Of a stretch of DNA of 64,000 nucleotides, positions 50,180 to 64,000 are shown one piece after another. The notes below the pieces were generated by a model. It had not been told where the DNA came from. It worked only from the letters and a program-made list of their open reading frames with translations, and ran no database searches. Position 1 is the first letter of the stretch. Every line of letters starts with the position of its first letter. The position numbers were made by a program, and so were the translations under genes. The DNA comes from a virus (lineage: Duplodnaviria > Caudoviricetes), in IMG/VR virus record IMGVR_UViG_3300025646_000037, positions 1,199 to 65,198 of that record; one strand, written 5' to 3'.

Positions 50180-51193
50180 ATGCCTGCATTTAAACGAGCC
50201 GCAGTATTCACGGATATCCACTTCGGACTAAAGTCAAACAGTCATTTACACAATGATGATTGTTTGGCTTTTGTCGATTGGGTAATAACCACAGCAAAAG
50301 AAAAGAACTGTGATACTTGTATAATGATGGGAGACTGGCACAATAACCGTGCTAGTATTAACATTGTTACACTTAACTACAGTCTCAGGGCCCTGGAAAA
50401 ACTAGGCAAGGCTTTTGATAGAGTCTTGTTTATCCCTGGCAATCACGACCTGTACTACAGAGACAAACGTGATATACAGTCAGCAGAATGGGCTAAACAT
50501 ATTCCCAACATTGAAATAGTCAATAACTTTTATAATGAAGATGACATTATAATTGTACCCTGGCTAGTTGGCGATGAACATAAGAAGATACCTAAAATGT
50601 CTGGCAAGTATATGTTTGGACACTTTGAGTTACCTAACTTCTTTATGAATGCAATGGTAAAGATGCCTGACCACGGTGAGATACAAGGCGAACACTTTGG
50701 TGGCATAGAGCACGTGTTTAGTGGACACTTTCACAAAAGACAAACACAGGGCAACATCACATATACAGGCAATGCGTTTCCTCACAACTATGCAGATGCA
50801 GGAGACGATGATCGTGGACTTATGATATTAGAGTGGGGCAGTCAACCAGAGTTTGTTAGTTGGCCCGATCAACCTACATATCGTGTTTACGACCTCAGTC
50901 AGATTATTGACCACGCTGACAAGATATTAAAACCTAACATGCATGTTAGAGTAAACTTGGATATTGAGATCAGTTATGAGGAAGCAAACTTTATTAAAGA
51001 CACATTCTTAGGCACACATAAACTACGTGAGATTACTCTCATGCCACGTAAGAATGAGCATGCTGAACAAGATGCTACTGCTATACAGGTAGAGTTTAAG
51101 AGCGTAGATCAAATTGTTACAAATCAAATTACTGCTATTGACAGCAATCAGTTTGACAAGAAGTTACTGTTAGACATCTACAATAATTTATAG
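50180..51193 (+). CDS. gp47: Recombination endonuclease subunit (Mre11/SbcD-like)
   Basis: DIHFG, GDWH, GNHD, GHFE, SGHFH metallophosphoesterase motifs. Confidence 0.92.
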   Translation: MPAFKRAAVFTDIHFGLKSNSHLHNDDCLAFVDWVITTAKEKNCDTCIMMGDWHNNRASINIVTLNYSLRALEKLGKAFDRVLFIPGNHDLYYRDKRDIQSAEWAKHIPNIEIVNNFYNEDDIIIVPWLVGDEHKKIPKMSGKYMFGHFELPNFFMNAMVKMPDHGEIQGEHFGGIEHVFSGHFHKRQTQGNITYTGNAFPHNYADAGDDDRGLMILEWGSQPEFVSWPDQPTYRVYDLSQIIDHADKILKPNMHVRVNLDIEISYEEANFIKDTFLGTHKLREITLMPRKNEHAEQDATAIQVEFKSVDQIVTNQITAIDSNQFDKKLLLDIYNNL

Positions 51194-51208: not shown

Positions 51209-52975
51209 ATGTTCAAAGTTACTGATATAACAGTTAAAAATTTTATGAGTGTTGGAAACAGCACTCAGGGTATTCAGTTTGACAGAAACGATCTTACACT
51301 TGTACTAGGTAAAAACTTAGACTTGGGTGGTGATGATAGTGGTGCTCGTAATGGCACAGGCAAGACTACTATCATCAATGCACTAAGTTATGCATTATAT
51401 GGTGAGGCACTTACTAAGATTAGGAAAGAAAACCTAATCAATAAAACAAACGCTAAGAACATGATGGTTACCATTGAGTTTGAGAAAGATGGCAACCACT
51501 ATCGTATTGAACGTGGTCGTAAACCCAACGTATTAAAGTTTTACGTCAACGACTCCGAACAAGAAGATGACAATGCACAAGGCGATAGCAGAGAAACACA
51601 AAAAGAAATAGAACAACTACTTGGTATGAGTCACGACATGTTTAAACATGTTGTTGCCTTAAACACTTATACTGAGCCATTCCTTAGCATGCGAGCTAAT
51701 GACCAACGTTTAATGATTGAGCAGTTGTTGGGTATTACGATGCTCAGTGAAAAAGCAGACGCACTAAAAGAACAAATTAAAGAGACTAAAGACGCTGTTA
51801 AACATGAGGACTTTAGGATCAAGGCTGTTAAAGAAGCCAATGAACACGTTACTACACAAATTACAAACTTAGAACGTCGTAGTGTAATGTGGGAAACTAA
51901 AAAGCAGGAAGATATTGTTAGTTTCCAAACTGCTATTACAGAACTAGAACGGGTAGACATTGAAGCAGAACTTGAAGCGCACAAGTGTCTTGTAAACTAC
52001 AAAGAACACGAACGCAATATTAAAGACTTGGATACTGCTATCAGTGCTAATCAAAACACTATTGACTCTAGTACTAAAAAGATAGAAAAGTACACAAAAG
52101 AGCTTGAGCAACTACGAGATCATAAATGCTTTACTTGTGGGCAAGAGTTTCATGACGCAAAACAAGAACAACTTATTGTTAGCAAACAGGAAGATATAGT
52201 AGAGCTCGAAGAAGATATCGCCAACGCTGAACAAGACCTAGCAACACTACAGGAAGCACGTAAGGAACTAGGTGATCTTGAACCTTGTCCGCCTACGTTT
52301 TATGACAGCATGGATGATGCTTACAATCACAAACAGCAGGTAGAGACACTACAAACGCAGATGGTGCAAAAACAAGCAGAAGAAAATCCCTATATAGAAC
52401 AAATAGAGGATATGCGTAATACTGCTGTACAAGAAATCAATTATGATGAGGTCAATAGACTACAACGGCTACAAGAGCATCAAGACTTCTTGTTAAAACT
52501 GTTAACAAACAAAGATAGTTTTATTAGAAAAACTATTATTGATCAGAACTTGGCATACTTAAATGCCAGACTGAGCTACTACTTAGACAAGATTGGATTG
52601 CCACACCAAGTTACTTTCTTAAGTGACTTGACAGTGGACATACAAGAGCTAGGCAGAGAACTAGACTTTGATAACTTATCTCGTGGTGAGCGTAACAGAC
52701 TTATATTAAGTTTAAGTTGGGCTTTCCGTGATGTATGGGAAAGTTTATATCAGCGTATCAACGTGTTGTTTATTGACGAGGTTATTGACCACGGTATGGA
52801 CAGTTTAGGTGTTGAAAGCAGTCTAGCAATACTTAAAAAGATGGCACGTGATGGCAACAAGGCAGTTTGGTTAGTGTCGCATAAAGATGAACTTGCAGGG
52901 CGTGTTAACAATATATTAAATGTTGTTAAGGAAAACGGCTTTACAAGTTATATGAATGACGTTGATATGGCATAG
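51209..52975 (+). CDS. gp46: Recombination ATPase subunit (Rad50/SbcC-like)
   Basis: NGTGKT Walker A, CFTC zinc hook, LSRGE signature, LFIDE Walker B, SH switch. Confidence 0.92.
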   Translation: MFKVTDITVKNFMSVGNSTQGIQFDRNDLTLVLGKNLDLGGDDSGARNGTGKTTIINALSYALYGEALTKIRKENLINKTNAKNMMVTIEFEKDGNHYRIERGRKPNVLKFYVNDSEQEDDNAQGDSRETQKEIEQLLGMSHDMFKHVVALNTYTEPFLSMRANDQRLMIEQLLGITMLSEKADALKEQIKETKDAVKHEDFRIKAVKEANEHVTTQITNLERRSVMWETKKQEDIVSFQTAITELERVDIEAELEAHKCLVNYKEHERNIKDLDTAISANQNTIDSSTKKIEKYTKELEQLRDHKCFTCGQEFHDAKQEQLIVSKQEDIVELEEDIANAEQDLATLQEARKELGDLEPCPPTFYDSMDDAYNHKQQVETLQTQMVQKQAEENPYIEQIEDMRNTAVQEINYDEVNRLQRLQEHQDFLLKLLTNKDSFIRKTIIDQNLAYLNARLSYYLDKIGLPHQVTFLSDLTVDIQELGRELDFDNLSRGERNRLILSLSWAFRDVWESLYQRINVLFIDEVIDHGMDSLGVESSLAILKKMARDGNKAVWLVSHKDELAGRVNNILNVVKENGFTSYMNDVDMA

Positions 52976-53065
52976 ATGACCAAAAGACCCCATGAAAATA
53001 TTTTGGCTTACTTGGCAAGGAATAAACAATATTATAATATCACTAAAGGAAATATTAAGTAACAC

Positions 53066-53521
53066 ATGTCGTATGAGAATCCCTGGTTTTACAACGGAAA
53101 AATATTTGAATCAGACGACATAGGCGATTATTATGGCTTTGTATATCGAATAACAAACACTTCTAACGGGCATGATTATATAGGCAGGAAGTTCTTCCAC
53201 ACCATTAAGAAACGACCTCCTTTAAAAGGCAAGAAAAATAAAAGACACACAAAAGTAGAGACTGATTGGAAGACCTACTGGGGATCCAGTCAGCAACTAC
53301 TCGAAGACATAGACACACTAGGCAAAGAAAAATTCACACGGCAAATAATCAGGCTCTGTAACACTCGAGGCGAAACAAACTATTGTGAGGCATATTATCA
53401 GTTCATTGAAGGTGTACTATTAAAAGACAACAACTATAATGGTATTATCAATATAAGACTTGGTGGTAACTCAGTAAAAGGTCTTCTGCTCGAGGACTTA
53501 AACACAAAAACTAAAATTTAA
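53066..53521 (+). CDS. Minimal GIY-YIG family nuclease
   Basis: GFVYRITN..NG..YIGRK, YWGSS, NYCE, YNG; no C-terminal NUMOD/HTH domain visible. Confidence 0.8.
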   Translation: MSYENPWFYNGKIFESDDIGDYYGFVYRITNTSNGHDYIGRKFFHTIKKRPPLKGKKNKRHTKVETDWKTYWGSSQQLLEDIDTLGKEKFTRQIIRLCNTRGETNYCEAYYQFIEGVLLKDNNYNGIINIRLGGNSVKGLLLEDLNTKTKI

Positions 53522-53523
53522 TT

Positions 53524-53865
53524 CATCAGCCACTGATGCAGAGTGTTCTCTGTGTCCTATGAGGTGATTGCGGCAACGCATGGAACACGCAAGAATAGAC
53601 TTGCGGACGGGACGGCAAAAAGGCATTTAAGTGTAAAAACTAAATGATCTAGGCTCTGTGAAAAAGATACAACCTAGGAGTCACTGTGAGTTGGCTAATT
53701 ACGGCTCATATACTTCCGTTGCATGAAGCTAGAGTAAGGGGTACCGGGCAACCGCCTCTGTTCTGTAAAGAAATCTCTTGTAATTAGGATGGACTAAACT
53801 CGGATGATGTCTATTTTTCTCCTAGCAATAGGAGAAGTATGGCTCACATCTGGATGATATCGAAA
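53524..53865 (+). ncRNA. Candidate large structured non-coding RNA (unassigned family)
   Basis: Visibly GC-richer intergenic region with about 10 hairpins, four capped by GNRA tetraloops on the + strand, G-U wobble stems and an 8-bp loop-distal complement. Confidence 0.65.
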
Positions 53866-53911
53866 AACAAATAATAAAAAAGATTGTTTGAACGAAGTGA
53901 AAACAATAGAC

Positions 53912-54598
53912 TTACGTAGTAAGTCTCCTAAGTAACCGATGATTATGTGTATAATTGCTATTAGCAGGAACTGAATCAAATACAACAGCACCAGTCCATA
54001 ACTTTGCGTTTTCGTGAATGGTGATATCTCTGGCATGTCCTTCGGAAATAGTGACACTGAGTCCGATTCTGACATTATCCTCGACAGTTATACCACCTGC
54101 TAGTGTTGATCTAGCACCTACAATTACATTCTTTCCGATTGTGCATCCATGTCCTATGTAGGTATACCAATCTACAACTGAGTAATCTCCTACTCGGCAA
54201 AAATGACTAATACCTGAGAAAGGCATTGCTATAATGCCATGACCTAGCTCTGTGTTGTCTAACTGTTTGCAGTCTGGGTGCATAAGATTAGTACACTTGA
54301 TACCATTATCCTCTAATAGTTTAATGCGAGTTTTACGTAGATTATCGCCTGAGTGTTCTGGATTGTTTAAATTTTCGTTACCGTCCCACCAGGACGTTAA
54401 AAAGAAATCATGGTCTTCTACAAATGTACGATCTTCTAGTATGCTATCTGCGCCTATTATAGGAACTCCGCAGACTTCGTTGGTATTTCCGTAAAAATAC
54501 TTGTCTACTAGTCCTACTACATTACGTCCTAGGTCATTTGCTACCAGCAATACATCGTACAAGTTTCGTCTATGTCCTACAAATACTATTGGTTTCAT
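53912..54598 (-). CDS. Sugar acetyltransferase, NeuD/PglD-like (hexapeptide repeat)
   Basis: VGLVD...VCGVPIIG Rossmann-like N-domain, NLMHP, left-handed beta-helix repeats (IGHGCTIGKNVIVG); true start probably ATG 54598 (MKPIVFVG) rather than 54649. Confidence 0.8.
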   Translation of the reverse strand: MKPIVFVGHRRNLYDVLLVANDLGRNVVGLVDKYFYGNTNEVCGVPIIGADSILEDRTFVEDHDFFLTSWWDGNENLNNPEHSGDNLRKTRIKLLEDNGIKCTNLMHPDCKQLDNTELGHGIIAMPFSGISHFCRVGDYSVVDWYTYIGHGCTIGKNVIVGARSTLAGGITVEDNVRIGLSVTISEGHARDITIHENAKLWTGAVVFDSVPANSNYTHNHRLLRRLTT

Positions 54599-59638: not shown

Positions 59639-59655
59639 TAATAAATAATACTATT

Positions 59656-59877
59656 ATGTTACTAACAGAATTCTTAAATAAACATGAAGACGAAAGTTAT
59701 CCTAGTAATAACGACGATAAGAGCGTTTATAAACTAAGTGACTTGCGTAAAACTAGGCTCACATTGGCACAATTAAACAAATTAAGGAATATTAGGGACG
59801 TTAAAAAACTAGAACAAGAGAAAAAAATAAAAGACATTAGGCAACAATATAGGCCAGCACCACAACAGGCAATGTAA
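59656..59877 (+). CDS. Small head-module protein
   Basis: RKTRLTL.QLNKLR; preceded by TAAATA at 59642-59647. Confidence 0.65.
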   Translation: MLLTEFLNKHEDESYPSNNDDKSVYKLSDLRKTRLTLAQLNKLRNIRDVKKLEQEKKIKDIRQQYRPAPQQAM

Positions 59878-60007
59878 TTTAAGCAAAAAGACTCCAAGAT
59901 TTGGCGTTTTCTACGTCAAAACCGCTCAAAAACCTCTTTTTTGCAGAGTATTTCTGCACCTCCGTTAAATACTACTATAATTTTACTACCTATAGGAGTG
60001 ACTTCGC

Positions 60008-63777: not shown

Positions 63778-63865
63778 GTTCAGTAGTTATGGGAAAGTCT
63801 AGAAAAGGTTTCTAGACCCAACTGACTTATGCTGTCCCCACAGCGTAGCGACTAGAACTCGCATT
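63778..63865 (+). ncRNA. Candidate structured 5' leader RNA
   Basis: Three consecutive hairpins between the late promoter and the RBS of the next gene. Confidence 0.45.
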
Positions 63866-63891
63866 GGACTTCTAAATATAGGAGAAAACAA

Positions 63892-64000
63892 ATGGGAAGA
63901 CCTTTAAAATTAGCAGAAACAGTTGACGGCAACTTAAAAGTTCCTTCAGCAAACACAACAGGTACTATCGGTAATACATCACTGTCTGGCGCAACACAGA
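63892..64000 (+). CDS. Putative virion protein, 5' part only
   Basis: GGAGA RBS at 63881; MGRPLKLAETVDGNLKVPSANTTGTIGNTSLSGATQ open to the window end. Confidence 0.6.
   Translation, partial: MGRPLKLAETVDGNLKVPSANTTGTIGNTSLSGATQ

What the first reader, a model, noticed from the sequence alone, without database searches (positions are those of the whole stretch)
53066..53865. Minimal GIY-YIG nuclease immediately followed by a ~340-nt highly structured RNA: candidate nuclease-RNA system
Seen: this is the largest intergenic gap in a gene-dense window and folding starts 3 nt after the nuclease stop. GNRA-capped hairpins on the + strand are TGCG-GCAA-CGCA (53569-80), CGG-GCAA-CCG (53745-54, extended by AGGGG/CCTCT), TTCT-GTAA-AGAA (53761-72) and TTCTCCTA-GCAA-TAGGAGAA (53817-36). 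Further stems are CATCAG/CTGATG (53524-38), CAGAG/CTCTG (53539-52), CGCAAG/CTTGCG (53588-605), CTAGG/CCTAG (53649-77) and the G-U-rich TGTGAGTTG/CGGCTCATA (53685-710). The loop of the last (CTAATTAC, 53695-702) is perfectly complementary to GTAATTAG (53780-87), a candidate pseudoknot. GNRA loops and wobble pairs point to function as RNA. The 151-aa nuclease has catalytic motifs and a basic insert (KKRPPLKGKKNKRH) but no visible DNA-recognition domain. Known: compact nucleases paired with adjacent structured RNAs (IscB/omegaRNA, TnpB/reRNA) are RNA-guided; I know of no GIY-YIG equivalent. Inference: an undescribed ribonucleoprotein, a ribozyme, or an origin-priming RNA next to the gp46/47 recombination genes.
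Basis: partly seen in the sequence, partly recalled or inferred. Interest (0 to 1): 0.9.

Follow-up and report, generated by a model that had tools for sequence, protein, structure and literature searches.

The report
Twin-box knotted RNA beside phage nuclease
The gene-free stretch behind a small DNA-cutting enzyme gene of this uncultured T4-like lake phage encodes a real, doubly knotted, uncatalogued RNA that carries one fast-changing 7-letter word twice; its job is unknown, and the enzyme looks more like a habitual neighbour than a guided partner.

Summary
Window 53522-53858 (+) is a conserved, about 335-nt structured RNA. On 27 distinct relatives, 80 proposed pairs are 98.9% paired, and 42 pairs show changes on both sides (0 of 500 shuffles reach this; slid controls 33-44% paired). 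Rfam 15 has no match, and neither do 50,697 GenBank phage records.

Of 91 distinct RNA loci with enough upstream DNA, 88 have a small nuclease gene upstream on the same strand. That is 78 SegE-type GIY-YIG and 10 PD-(D/E)xK. However, each partner also occurs without the other.

The most striking feature is two heptamers (GGATGAT at 53802-08 and 53852-58). They are identical to each other in 114 of 122 distinct RNAs, yet they switch among more than 10 variants. No complementary partner lies in the RNA or its flanks.

My best reading is an independent phage RNA gene whose twin boxes are read by one unknown partner. An RNA-guided nuclease is not excluded, at about 10-15%. Earlier notes of this scan report the same "twin-box" family on other DNA.

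The parts
53066..53521 (+). Catalytic-domain-only GIY-YIG nuclease gene (151 aa), SegE/I-TevI type
   Evidence: Pfam PF19835 scores E 1.6e-38 over residues 7-124 and phrog_447 scores E 1.9e-42. GIY, YIG, Arg, Glu and Asn positions are invariant in 26 relatives. The AF2 model's best PDB match is the I-TevI catalytic domain.
53522..53858 (+). Twin-box RNA, conserved core. The 5' limit abuts the nuclease stop codon. The 3' limit is set at the end of box 2; the true 3' end is unknown.
   Evidence: blastn and nhmmer find it conserved in 172 of 190 fetched loci. Structure test: 80 pairs, 98.9% paired, 42 with double changes. No Rfam match at E up to 10.
53529..53616 (+). 5' domain. A long-range helix GCC/GGC (53529-31 with 53614-16) and GTCCT..G/C..GGGAC (53554-61 with 53608-13) enclose hairpins 53538-53, 53569-80 and 53588-605.
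   Evidence: Helices 1-5, with 17 of 25 pairs changing on both sides. This domain is the least conserved in sequence: nhmmer aligns distant members only from about profile position 60-118 onwards.
53630..53715 (+). Central hairpins: 53630-41, 53649-77, and 53678-80/53713-15 enclosing the G-U-rich hairpin 53685-710
   Evidence: Helices 6-10
53695..53701 (+). Pseudoknot 1, loop strand CTAATTA, pairs with 53781-53787
   Evidence: helix 11. Divergent members keep it with other sequences, seen directly: L075, L079, L084, L103 and L190.
53781..53787 (+). Pseudoknot 1, 3' strand TAATTAG
   Evidence: helix 11
53720..53722 (+). Pseudoknot 2, strand TGC, pairs with loop GCA at 53748-53750
   Evidence: helix 12: 3 of 3 pairs change on both sides. 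In 122 RNAs, column pair 195-225 reads TA 69, CG 43.
53731..53778 (+). Three-way junction. Helix AGAG (53731-34)/CTCT (53775-78) encloses hairpin 53737-59 (bulged, its loop in pseudoknot 2) and hairpin 53761-72.
   Evidence: helices 13-16. In 122 RNAs the outer pair reads AT 81, TA 31, GC 5. That contradicts the alternative RNAalifold helix to 53850-54.
53802..53808 (+). Box 1 (GGATGAT), in the loop of hairpin GGAC/GTCT (53791-94 with 53809-12)
   Evidence: Identical to box 2 in 114 of 122 distinct RNAs. Mutual information equals column entropy. The flanks of box 1 are more complementary than shuffles (z -1.26).
53813..53840 (+). Hairpin between the boxes (ATTTTTCTCCT / AGGAGAAGTAT)
   Evidence: helix 17: 11 pairs, 99% paired. 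Its outer pairs compete with the box-1 hairpin for the same strand (B:C z -1.51).
53852..53858 (+). Box 2 (GGATGAT), in a 3' stretch with no general pairing partner
   Evidence: Complementarity of its flanks to the downstream 32 nt is no better than shuffles.
53883..53926 (.). Two hairpins after the RNA: ATTGTTT-GAACGAAGTGA-AAACAAT (53883-907) and AGACTTAC-GTA-GTAAGTCT (53908-26). It is uncertain whether they belong to the RNA. The second scores as a terminator of the convergent minus-strand gene.
   Evidence: The first hairpin type is found in 27 of 116 distinct tails.

Best explanation
Window 53522-53858 (+) is a gene for a large, compactly folded non-coding RNA of uncultured T4-like (Kyanoviridae-related) aquatic phages. 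It is made as the 3' end of the gp47-gp46-nuclease transcription unit.

Shown:
- about 17 covarying helices, including two pseudoknots and a three-way junction
- the RNA strand
- wide distribution
- absence from Rfam and from cultured phages
- a strong but non-obligatory position behind small nuclease genes
- two 7-nt boxes that are kept identical to each other while switching fast among variants. One lies in a hairpin loop and one in an unpaired 3' stretch.

Inferred: the RNA acts in trans, and its two boxes are the working part. Both are read by one and the same partner. Most likely that partner is a nucleic acid carrying the complementary heptamer, so that a change in the partner selects the same change in both boxes. 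The knotted body presents the boxes. The competing helices around box 1 may gate access to them.

The GIY-YIG gene, or in other phages a PD-(D/E)xK gene, is read as a habitual neighbour. It would be either a free-standing homing-type nuclease settled beside a conserved RNA gene, as SegB is beside the T4 tRNA genes, or a member of the recombination module. I do not read it as an RNA-guided enzyme.
For: The structure is real; 98.9% of 2147 cells are paired, 42 of 80 pairs change on both sides, 0 of 500 shuffles reach this, and slid controls give 33-44% paired; 35 of 71 RNAalifold pairs are compensatory. The fold is strand-specific.

Distribution. All 52 loci with a GIY-YIG at least 66% identical that have downstream DNA carry the RNA. 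In 185,579 prokaryote genomes it finds only 3 true hits, all on MAG contigs. GenBank phages give no match, and neither does Rfam.

Independence from the nuclease.
- The neighbour tally among 91 loci is 67 + 11 GIY-YIG, 9 + 1 PD-(D/E)xK and 3 with none.
- The same GIY-YIG family occurs without the RNA in 11 loci, of which 10 keep at least 550 nt downstream, and in Methylophilales phage Melnitz and Prochlorococcus phage P-HM1.

Twin boxes.
- They are identical in 114 of 122 distinct RNAs, with 8 common and several rare variants.
- Mutual information is 0.79-1.11 bits, about equal to column entropy. The next-best column gives at most 0.36.
- Among sequence pairs at least 88% identical elsewhere, 79 differ in a box, and 74 of those show the same change in both boxes.
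- No cis complement exists in the RNA: at most 12 of 115 at any place.

Precedents. SegB lies in the T4 tRNA gene cluster (PMC2330249; I saw the abstract in the listing). Two RNA motifs that covary in parallel because one symmetric reader binds both are described for TIGR edge and loop repeats (PMC12045711; passages read).

Expression. Contigs of two RNA libraries span the nuclease 3' part plus the RNA (records 11 and 12). This is weak evidence, because they are contigs and DNA carry-over is not excluded.
Against: Occupancy of the upstream slot by a nuclease gene is 97% (88 of 91). That is higher than the patchy spread usual for homing endonuclease genes. Two unrelated nuclease families replace each other in the same slot, which is what functional coupling would also give.

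The GIY-YIG lacks any DNA-binding domain, so it needs some targeting partner.

No partner for the boxes was found. The own-box complement is not enriched within 2 kb either side (30 occurrences against 33.7 expected from the other variants). No recurrent complementary site turned up in up to about 14 kb of flanks.

Transcription, RNA ends and trans action are not shown. Only assembled contigs of RNA libraries were available.
Confidence: 0.5

Rival explanations
1. Nuclease-RNA ribonucleoprotein. The RNA binds the catalytic-domain-only nuclease (GIY-YIG, or PD-(D/E)xK in other phages) and supplies target choice. The two heptamers pair with DNA and so act as a short programmable specificity word.
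For: 88 of 91 distinct RNA loci have a small nuclease gene upstream on the same strand, 76 of them directly adjacent. The ORF stop abuts or overlaps the RNA start. The nuclease has no DNA-binding domain. Two unrelated nuclease folds fill the same slot. The boxes are single-stranded and change fast, as specificity determinants do.
Against: The short GIY-YIG family exists widely without the RNA: 11 loci, and cultured phages. One search lists 686 phage records with a match, while no GenBank phage holds the RNA.

The RNA exists without a nuclease in 3 loci and with 1-2 cargo ORFs in between in 12.

Seven nucleotides is very short for a guide. Two identical guides would address one strand twice. 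No own-box or complement enrichment is seen nearby.
Confidence: 0.15
2. Homo-oligomeric or protein-scaffold RNA. The twin boxes are two equivalent docking sites for a symmetric reader, either a dimeric protein or other copies of the RNA, as in RNA-only assemblies of large ornate RNAs.
For: Parallel covariation of two motifs bound by a symmetric dimer is documented for TIGR repeats (PMC12045711, passages). GOLLD, ROOL and OLE form homo-oligomers (PMC12286853; I saw only the start of the abstract in the listing). The stretch ATCT+RGAT spanning the start of box 2 is self-complementary if G-U pairs are allowed; I read this from the sequences.
Against: The box variants switch among near-identical RNAs and carry almost no information about the rest of the RNA. 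That fits poorly with a co-evolving protein surface. Positions 5 and 7 of the box lie outside the self-complementary part. No complementary loop exists in the RNA.
Confidence: 0.12
3. Self-processing or template-jumping element. The two identical words mark two equivalent reaction sites that bound the roughly 50-nt hairpin unit. These could be cleavage and ligation sites of a ribozyme or an RNase. Alternatively they could be repeats that let a polymerase jump from one end of a template to the other. The second idea I recall from the defence reverse transcriptase DRT2; it comes from no call here.
For: The boxes flank a stable hairpin whose outer pairs bring them side by side. Exact identity over 7 nt with differing flanks (CTC versus TCT) suits a mechanism that reads or re-anneals the word itself. 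The body has many invariant unpaired nucleotides and two pseudoknots, as ribozymes do.
Against: No known ribozyme family matches. No reverse transcriptase or ligase gene was seen among the neighbours examined. The unit length varies from 49 to 64 nt with no preference for multiples of three, and only 34 of 116 concatemers are stop-free, so a repetitive coding product is unlikely. No joints were seen in RNA-library contigs, though contigs cannot show rare forms.
Confidence: 0.1
4. Cis-acting 3'-UTR element: a stabiliser, exonuclease block, terminator or translational regulator of the upstream operon, with no trans function.
For: The RNA always starts within a few tens of nucleotides after whichever ORF lies upstream and is co-oriented with it. 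It ends a transcription unit that faces convergent genes. RNA-library contigs bridge the ORF and the RNA.
Against: About 335 nt with two pseudoknots, a three-way junction and matched hypervariable boxes is far more than a stabiliser or terminator needs. The upstream gene differs among loci (GIY-YIG, PD-(D/E)xK, unrelated cargo ORFs), so no single regulated gene is conserved. No U-run follows box 2.
Confidence: 0.08

Closest known systems
Free-standing Seg-type GIY-YIG homing endonuclease genes of T4-like phages beside structured RNA genes (SegB in the T4 tRNA cluster; PMC2330249, abstract seen)
   Same: A GIY-YIG gene of the SegE/I-TevI type sits directly beside a conserved structured RNA gene in a T4-like phage. 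A second nuclease family can occupy the same slot, as mobile endonuclease genes do.
   Different: The protein here is the catalytic domain alone (151 aa), whereas Seg proteins carry a DNA-binding part (recalled). Occupancy of the slot is 97%, not patchy. No cleavage site or nuclease-free allele pair was tested.
OMEGA systems: IscB with omega RNA (formerly HEARO) and TnpB with reRNA
   Same: A compact nuclease gene with a large structured RNA immediately adjacent and co-oriented.
   Different: The nuclease folds differ (GIY-YIG or PD-(D/E)xK, not RuvC/HNH). There is no 16-20-nt guide, only two identical 7-mers. Each partner is found without the other. There is no Rfam HEARO match.
Large ornate RNAs of unknown function from bacteria and phages (GOLLD, ROOL, OLE)
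   Same: Large, multiply pseudoknotted, phage-borne RNA with strong covariation and no known function. An oligomeric role is conceivable.
   Different: No sequence or structure match to any of them in Rfam 15. It is smaller (about 335 nt), sits in a fixed position behind nuclease genes, and has twin matched boxes.
TIGR-Tas tigRNA edge and loop repeats (PMC12045711, passages read)
   Same: Two short RNA motifs in one transcript that covary in parallel (same letters, not complementary) because one reader binds both.
   Different: No Nop-domain protein lies next to the RNA. There is no tandem array and there are no 9-nt variable spacers; the stretch before box 1 is a helix strand. The matched word itself is the variable part here.
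Polynucleobacter-1 RNA motif (Rfam RF01718; Weinberg et al. 2010, PMC2864571; I saw only its table row)
   Same: Earlier notes of this scan say that the first third of other branches of this RNA family matches this orphan freshwater/estuary motif.
   Different: I could not reproduce this here. There is no RF01718 match in the window at E up to 10, in 39 related loci or in 5 whole viral records. For this branch, membership is untested or negative.

Membership tests
OMEGA-type RNA-guided nuclease (IscB/omegaRNA, TnpB/reRNA) | Structured RNA adjacent to and co-oriented with the nuclease gene | tested here: met
   76 of 91 loci are directly adjacent and 88 of 91 lie within 2.6 kb
OMEGA-type RNA-guided nuclease (IscB/omegaRNA, TnpB/reRNA) | RuvC (and HNH) nuclease of the IscB/TnpB fold | tested here: not met
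   GIY-YIG (PF19835; best fold match I-TevI) or PDDEXK_15
OMEGA-type RNA-guided nuclease (IscB/omegaRNA, TnpB/reRNA) | Variable guide of about 16-20 nt at one RNA end that matches target or flank DNA | tested here: not met
   The only fast-varying unpaired words are two identical 7-mers. Own-box words are not enriched within 2 kb either side.
OMEGA-type RNA-guided nuclease (IscB/omegaRNA, TnpB/reRNA) | RNA-dependent DNA cleavage | not testable with these tools
   Needs biochemistry
Any Rfam 15 family (including Intron_gpI, RNase P, tmRNA, HEARO, GOLLD, ROOL, Polynucleobacter-1) | Covariance-model match at or near the gathering score | tested here: not met
   52900-54100 gives only two noise hits at E up to 10. 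39 related loci give none. RF01718 gives none in 5 records. ARAGORN finds no tRNA or tmRNA.
Seg-type free-standing GIY-YIG homing endonuclease | GIY-YIG catalytic domain with conserved catalytic residues | tested here: met
Seg-type free-standing GIY-YIG homing endonuclease | Separate DNA-binding domain (recalled as typical of Seg proteins and I-TevI) | tested here: not met
   The protein is 151 aa and the Pfam domain spans 7-124. All 59 full-length relatives are 136-151 aa. A 355-aa form occurs in L110 and L190.
Seg-type free-standing GIY-YIG homing endonuclease | Site-specific cleavage of the endonuclease-free allele and preferential inheritance | not testable with these tools
   Needs assays and co-infection
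Group I intron carrying a GIY-YIG ORF | Interrupts a host gene, with exons that join into one reading frame or RNA | tested here: not met
   The gp46/Rad50 ORF 51209-52975 is complete. The next gene lies on the other strand. There is no Intron_gpI match.
TIGR-Tas / box C/D dual-guide RNA | Nop-domain protein beside a tandem array of repeat-spacer units | tested here: not met
   The adjacent proteins are GIY-YIG or PD-(D/E)xK. Only two units are present, and the segment before box 1 pairs with the segment after it.
TIGR-Tas / box C/D dual-guide RNA | Parallel covariation between the two repeats of one RNA | tested here: met
   This is a likeness in logic only.

The most novel reading that the evidence does not exclude
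The twin-box RNA is a portable targeting module for catalytic-domain-only nucleases. It docks a GIY-YIG or PD-(D/E)xK enzyme, and its two identical, quickly re-programmable heptamers pair with DNA to set where the enzyme cuts. This would be a new class of RNA-directed nuclease outside the RuvC/HNH world, used in competition between related phages.
Probability: 0.1. Interest if true: 0.95.

Novelty: categorically new. Interest (0 to 1): 0.72.

Why it matters
Large RNAs with this much covariation, two pseudoknots and many invariant unpaired nucleotides are rare, and past examples turned out to be ribozymes, riboswitches, guides or RNA assemblies. This one is abundant in uncultured aquatic T4-like phages and absent from RNA catalogues and cultured phages.

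It shows an unusual evolutionary signature: two 7-nt words that must stay the same as each other while changing fast. That signature points to a specific, still unknown reader and gives a direct experimental handle through single and double box swaps.

Its near-constant position behind catalytic-domain-only nucleases of two unrelated folds also makes the idea of an RNA-assisted GIY-YIG enzyme directly testable, even though the present evidence leans against it.

Caveat: earlier notes of this scan say that other branches of the family overlap the orphan Rfam motif Polynucleobacter-1. If that is right, the class is an extension of a catalogued but unexplained motif rather than wholly new. I could not reproduce that overlap here.

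Tried and rejected
Group I intron, RNase P, tmRNA, HEARO, GOLLD and ROOL. No Rfam match at E up to 10 and no tmRNA by ARAGORN. The gp46 ORF is complete, so no host gene is split.

Coding region. No ORF above 34 aa lies on the + strand in 53522-53911. Relatives differ by indels and by compensatory pair changes.

RNAalifold's helix between CTAGA (53729-33) and TCTGG (53850-54). Rejected in favour of AGAG/CTCT, because in 35 of 122 RNAs the middle pair would be U-U while the AGAG/CTCT pair covaries.

A second hairpin enclosing box 2 (my 'H15'). I saw it by eye in one subfamily. It has no support overall: flank complementarity gives z +0.22.

A cis partner for the boxes.
- None in the RNA.
- A small peak of complements 550-650 nt downstream proved to be Asp-Asp codons of a neighbouring gene.
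- The only recurrent flank cluster outside the boxes is the gp46 Walker-B region, and it carries the same-sense word.

A repetitive coding product of the box-to-box unit.

Box C/D reading of GATGAT. Half of the variants (GATAAA, GATAAT and others) lack the motif.

Polynucleobacter-1 link. Not reproduced. In one search the family also rang in none of the control genomes, so that call says little.

RNA-library contigs. They cover parts of the stretch, and holes in cover mean nothing. X15 and X16 hold a 35-nt match to 53728-62 inside otherwise unlike contigs, probably a distant relative of the RNA.

The hairpin with a GA..GA loop after the RNA is present in only 27 of 116 tails, so I do not count it as core.

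Supplementary files of papers were not opened. Weinberg et al. 2010 describe Polynucleobacter-1 only in supplements that I could not see.
Full report
Setting. The window is a 64-kb piece of a 65-kb IMG/VR virus record. It comes from a T4-like phage: gp47/Mre11-like at 50180-51193, gp46/Rad50-like at 51209-52975. The best cultured relatives of gp46 are only about 52% identical. DNA runs that hold the stretch are freshwater, aquatic and estuary metagenomes. The finding covers the ORF 53066-53521 and the gene-free stretch behind it.

Check of the observation. The stretch 53522-53911 is the largest ORF-free gap of the window. The next largest gap, 59639-60007, folds no better than shuffles. The + strand of 53519-53870 folds with z -3.39 (0 of 100 shuffles as good), and the - strand with z -0.66.

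A protein search of viral contigs with the GIY-YIG gave 70 loci. Every one of the 52 that has downstream DNA and a protein at least 66% identical carries a conserved element directly after the stop codon, 67-96% identical in DNA.

I aligned 27 distinct copies (A1). RNAalifold proposed 71 pairs, 35 with compensatory changes. I then wrote a structure of 80 pairs in 17 helices:
- it adds a second pseudoknot;
- it replaces one RNAalifold helix with a closing helix AGAG/CTCT.

On A1, 98.9% of 2147 cells are standard pairs and 42 pairs change on both sides. None of 500 shuffles reaches the paired fraction, the number of double-change pairs or the covariation score. The count of further pair types is no better than shuffles (403 of 500 reach it). 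Sliding the partners by 1-3 columns drops pairing to 33-44%.

The first hairpin (53524-38) is not conserved. The 'GNRA' loops are not conserved as such, and the GCAA loop at 53748-51 pairs with TGC at 53720-22, with all three pairs covarying. Invariant G-U pairs fix the + strand as the RNA. In five distant members both pseudoknots are kept with quite different letters (my reading of the printed sequences).

The nuclease. Pfam SegE_GIY-YIG covers residues 7-124 of 151, and PHROGs gives phrog_447, a 148-position family. The GIY, YIG, Arg, Glu and Asn positions are invariant in 26 relatives. The AlphaFold model (pLDDT 87.7) matches the I-TevI catalytic domain best. Sequence search finds no solved relative. 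All 59 relatives that could be read through to a stop codon are 136-151 aa.

How wide, and how linked. An nhmmer profile confirmed the RNA in 172 of the 190 loci fetched so far, giving 122 distinct sequences.

I classified the upstream neighbour in the 120 pattern-derived loci. I dropped 23 with under 900 nt upstream and 6 duplicates, which leaves 91:
- 67 have a GIY-YIG gene directly in front (35-90% identical to the window's).
- 11 have a GIY-YIG with one or two other ORFs in between.
- 9 have a PF24608 PDDEXK_15 nuclease directly in front.
- 1 has that nuclease with an ORF in between.
- 3 have neither.
Pfam assignments are and the ORFs.

In the other direction, 11 loci with GIY-YIG proteins 32-56% identical show no RNA. 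Ten of them keep at least 550 nt downstream.

The family is common in cultured phages: 686 records match, for example Methylophilales phage Melnitz and Prochlorococcus phage P-HM1. In those, ORFs follow the gene and the RNA profile finds nothing. No GenBank phage record matches the RNA from three branches. Among 185,579 prokaryote genomes the pattern hits five contigs. Three are true copies, all on MAG contigs, two of 148 and 183 kb. Thus the RNA belongs to uncultured phages, and its tie to nuclease genes is strong but not obligatory in either direction.

The twin boxes. Mutual information over 122 RNAs put three same-letter column pairs among the nine highest (ranks 1, 3 and 9), with 0.79-1.11 bits, on a par with the strongest Watson-Crick pairs. 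They belong to two 7-nt words, in the window GGATGAT at 53802-08 and 53852-58.
- The two words are identical in 114 of 122 RNAs. Three differ at one letter, and five are incomplete in the alignment.
- All eight combinations of RGATRAW occur, plus rarer words. By eye, ACGAAAT, GAATAAT and AGATCAA each appear twice in their own RNA.
- The box columns share almost no information with any other column, at most 0.36 bit.
- Among pairs of RNAs at least 88% identical outside the boxes, 79 differ in a box, and 74 of those show the same change in both.
- The flanks differ constantly: CTC before box 1 and TCT before box 2.
- Box 1 lies in the loop of a hairpin whose stem strands are more complementary than shuffles (z -1.26).
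- The strand after box 1 can also extend the hairpin between the boxes (z -1.51), so two helices compete.
- Box 2 has no general partner for its flanks (z +0.2).

I found no complementary word for the boxes:
- none within the RNA (at most 12 of 115 at any position);
- none within 2 kb either side (own word 30 against 33.7 for the other variants; same-sense 41 against 33);
- none as a recurrent site in the fetched flanks.
The box-to-box unit is 49-64 nt with no preference for multiples of three.

What it most likely is. The data establish a new, compactly folded phage RNA. Its size, two pseudoknots, many invariant unpaired letters and parallel-covarying words speak for a trans-acting RNA. A mere terminator or stabiliser would not need them.

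Two sites that must match each other while drifting fast are best explained by one reader that recognises both through the letters themselves, most simply by base pairing with a complementary heptamer elsewhere. A symmetric protein reader has a precedent in TIGR repeats. It fits the fast switching less well.

The nuclease genes can be explained without a functional tie. Free-standing Seg-type genes settle beside conserved genes, SegB beside the T4 tRNA genes. The slot also lies at the end of the recombination module, where a structure-specific nuclease would be at home; PHROGs names the PD-(D/E)xK family a RusA-like resolvase.

Against this, 97% occupancy and replacement by an unrelated nuclease fold are what functional coupling would also produce, and a catalytic domain without a DNA-binding part needs some partner. 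I therefore keep the RNP reading at about 0.15 and the bold 'RNA-directed GIY-YIG' form at about 0.1.

Expression. Only assembled contigs of RNA libraries could be laid. Two contigs (657 and 660 nt, 90-99% alike) bridge the nuclease 3' part and the RNA up to 53824 and 53858. That is compatible with co-transcription but does not prove it.

Comparison with known systems. The membership rows list the tests. In short:
- It resembles OMEGA systems only in gene layout.
- It resembles TIGR only in the logic of parallel covariation.
- It resembles GOLLD and ROOL only in being a large orphan phage RNA.
- It fails the defining features of each that I could test.

Literature searches for GIY-YIG with structured RNA in phages, for Kyanoviridae non-coding RNAs, for homing endonucleases beside RNA genes, for Polynucleobacter-1 and for large phage RNAs found no description of this RNA. 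These searches cover open-access papers and bioRxiv only.

Earlier notes of this scan. After I had found the boxes, the notes showed that the scan has met this family many times on other DNA. They name it 'twin-box RNA' and mostly read the nuclease as a neighbour. They also claim that the first third of other branches is the Rfam motif Polynucleobacter-1. I tested that on the window, on 39 related loci and on 5 whole records, and found nothing. For this branch the claim is not reproduced; I could not test other branches.

Verdict. The RNA is real, widespread and uncatalogued, with an unusual matched-word signature. Its function and its relation to the nuclease remain open.

Noticed in passing
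window 63811-63894 (+): The only Rfam hit of the window: freshwater-2 RNA (RF02980, 59 bits, gathering score 49.9), ending at an AGGAG...ATG start region.
   Followed up: no
window 53883-53926: Two hairpins follow the RNA. The first has a variable stem and a conserved GA..(2 bp + loop)..GA loop, and is found in 27 of 116 distinct tails. The second doubles as a terminator-like hairpin for the convergent acetyltransferase gene.
   Followed up: partly
L080, L081, L092, L115, L123, L130, L156, L158, L164, L189: One or two cargo ORFs (275-390 aa) are inserted between the GIY-YIG gene and the RNA. The two tested, in L080 and L081, have no Pfam match. The slot therefore also accepts unrelated genes.
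   Followed up: partly
L110 and L190: A 355-aa GIY-YIG protein sits directly before the RNA. It has the SegE domain at residues 11-128 and a long C-terminal extension, possibly the full-length form with a DNA-binding part.
   Followed up: no
L194, L196 (one MAG, contigs of 148 and 183 kb) and L198 (another MAG): True copies of the RNA lie on contigs binned as bacterial MAGs. These are probably phage contigs binned with their hosts, and could hint at hosts.
   Followed up: no
L029:3433-3818 (alignment A1 columns 129-160): A roughly 30-nt insertion in the variable linker between the 5' domain and the core, so this linker tolerates extra sequence.
   Followed up: no
window 53728-53762, runs X15 and X16: RNA-library contigs of 394 and 151 nt match only the 35-nt bulged hairpin and are unlike the window on both sides. 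This is probably a distant relative of the RNA present in metatranscriptomes.
   Followed up: no
window 53791-53850: The strand after box 1 can pair either with the strand before box 1 or with the strand before box 2, extending the middle hairpin. This is a possible two-state switch around the boxes.
   Followed up: partly
window 59639-60007: The second largest ORF-free gap under a 75-aa cut-off. It folds no better than shuffles on either strand and seems to hold an ORF just under the cut-off.
   Followed up: partly
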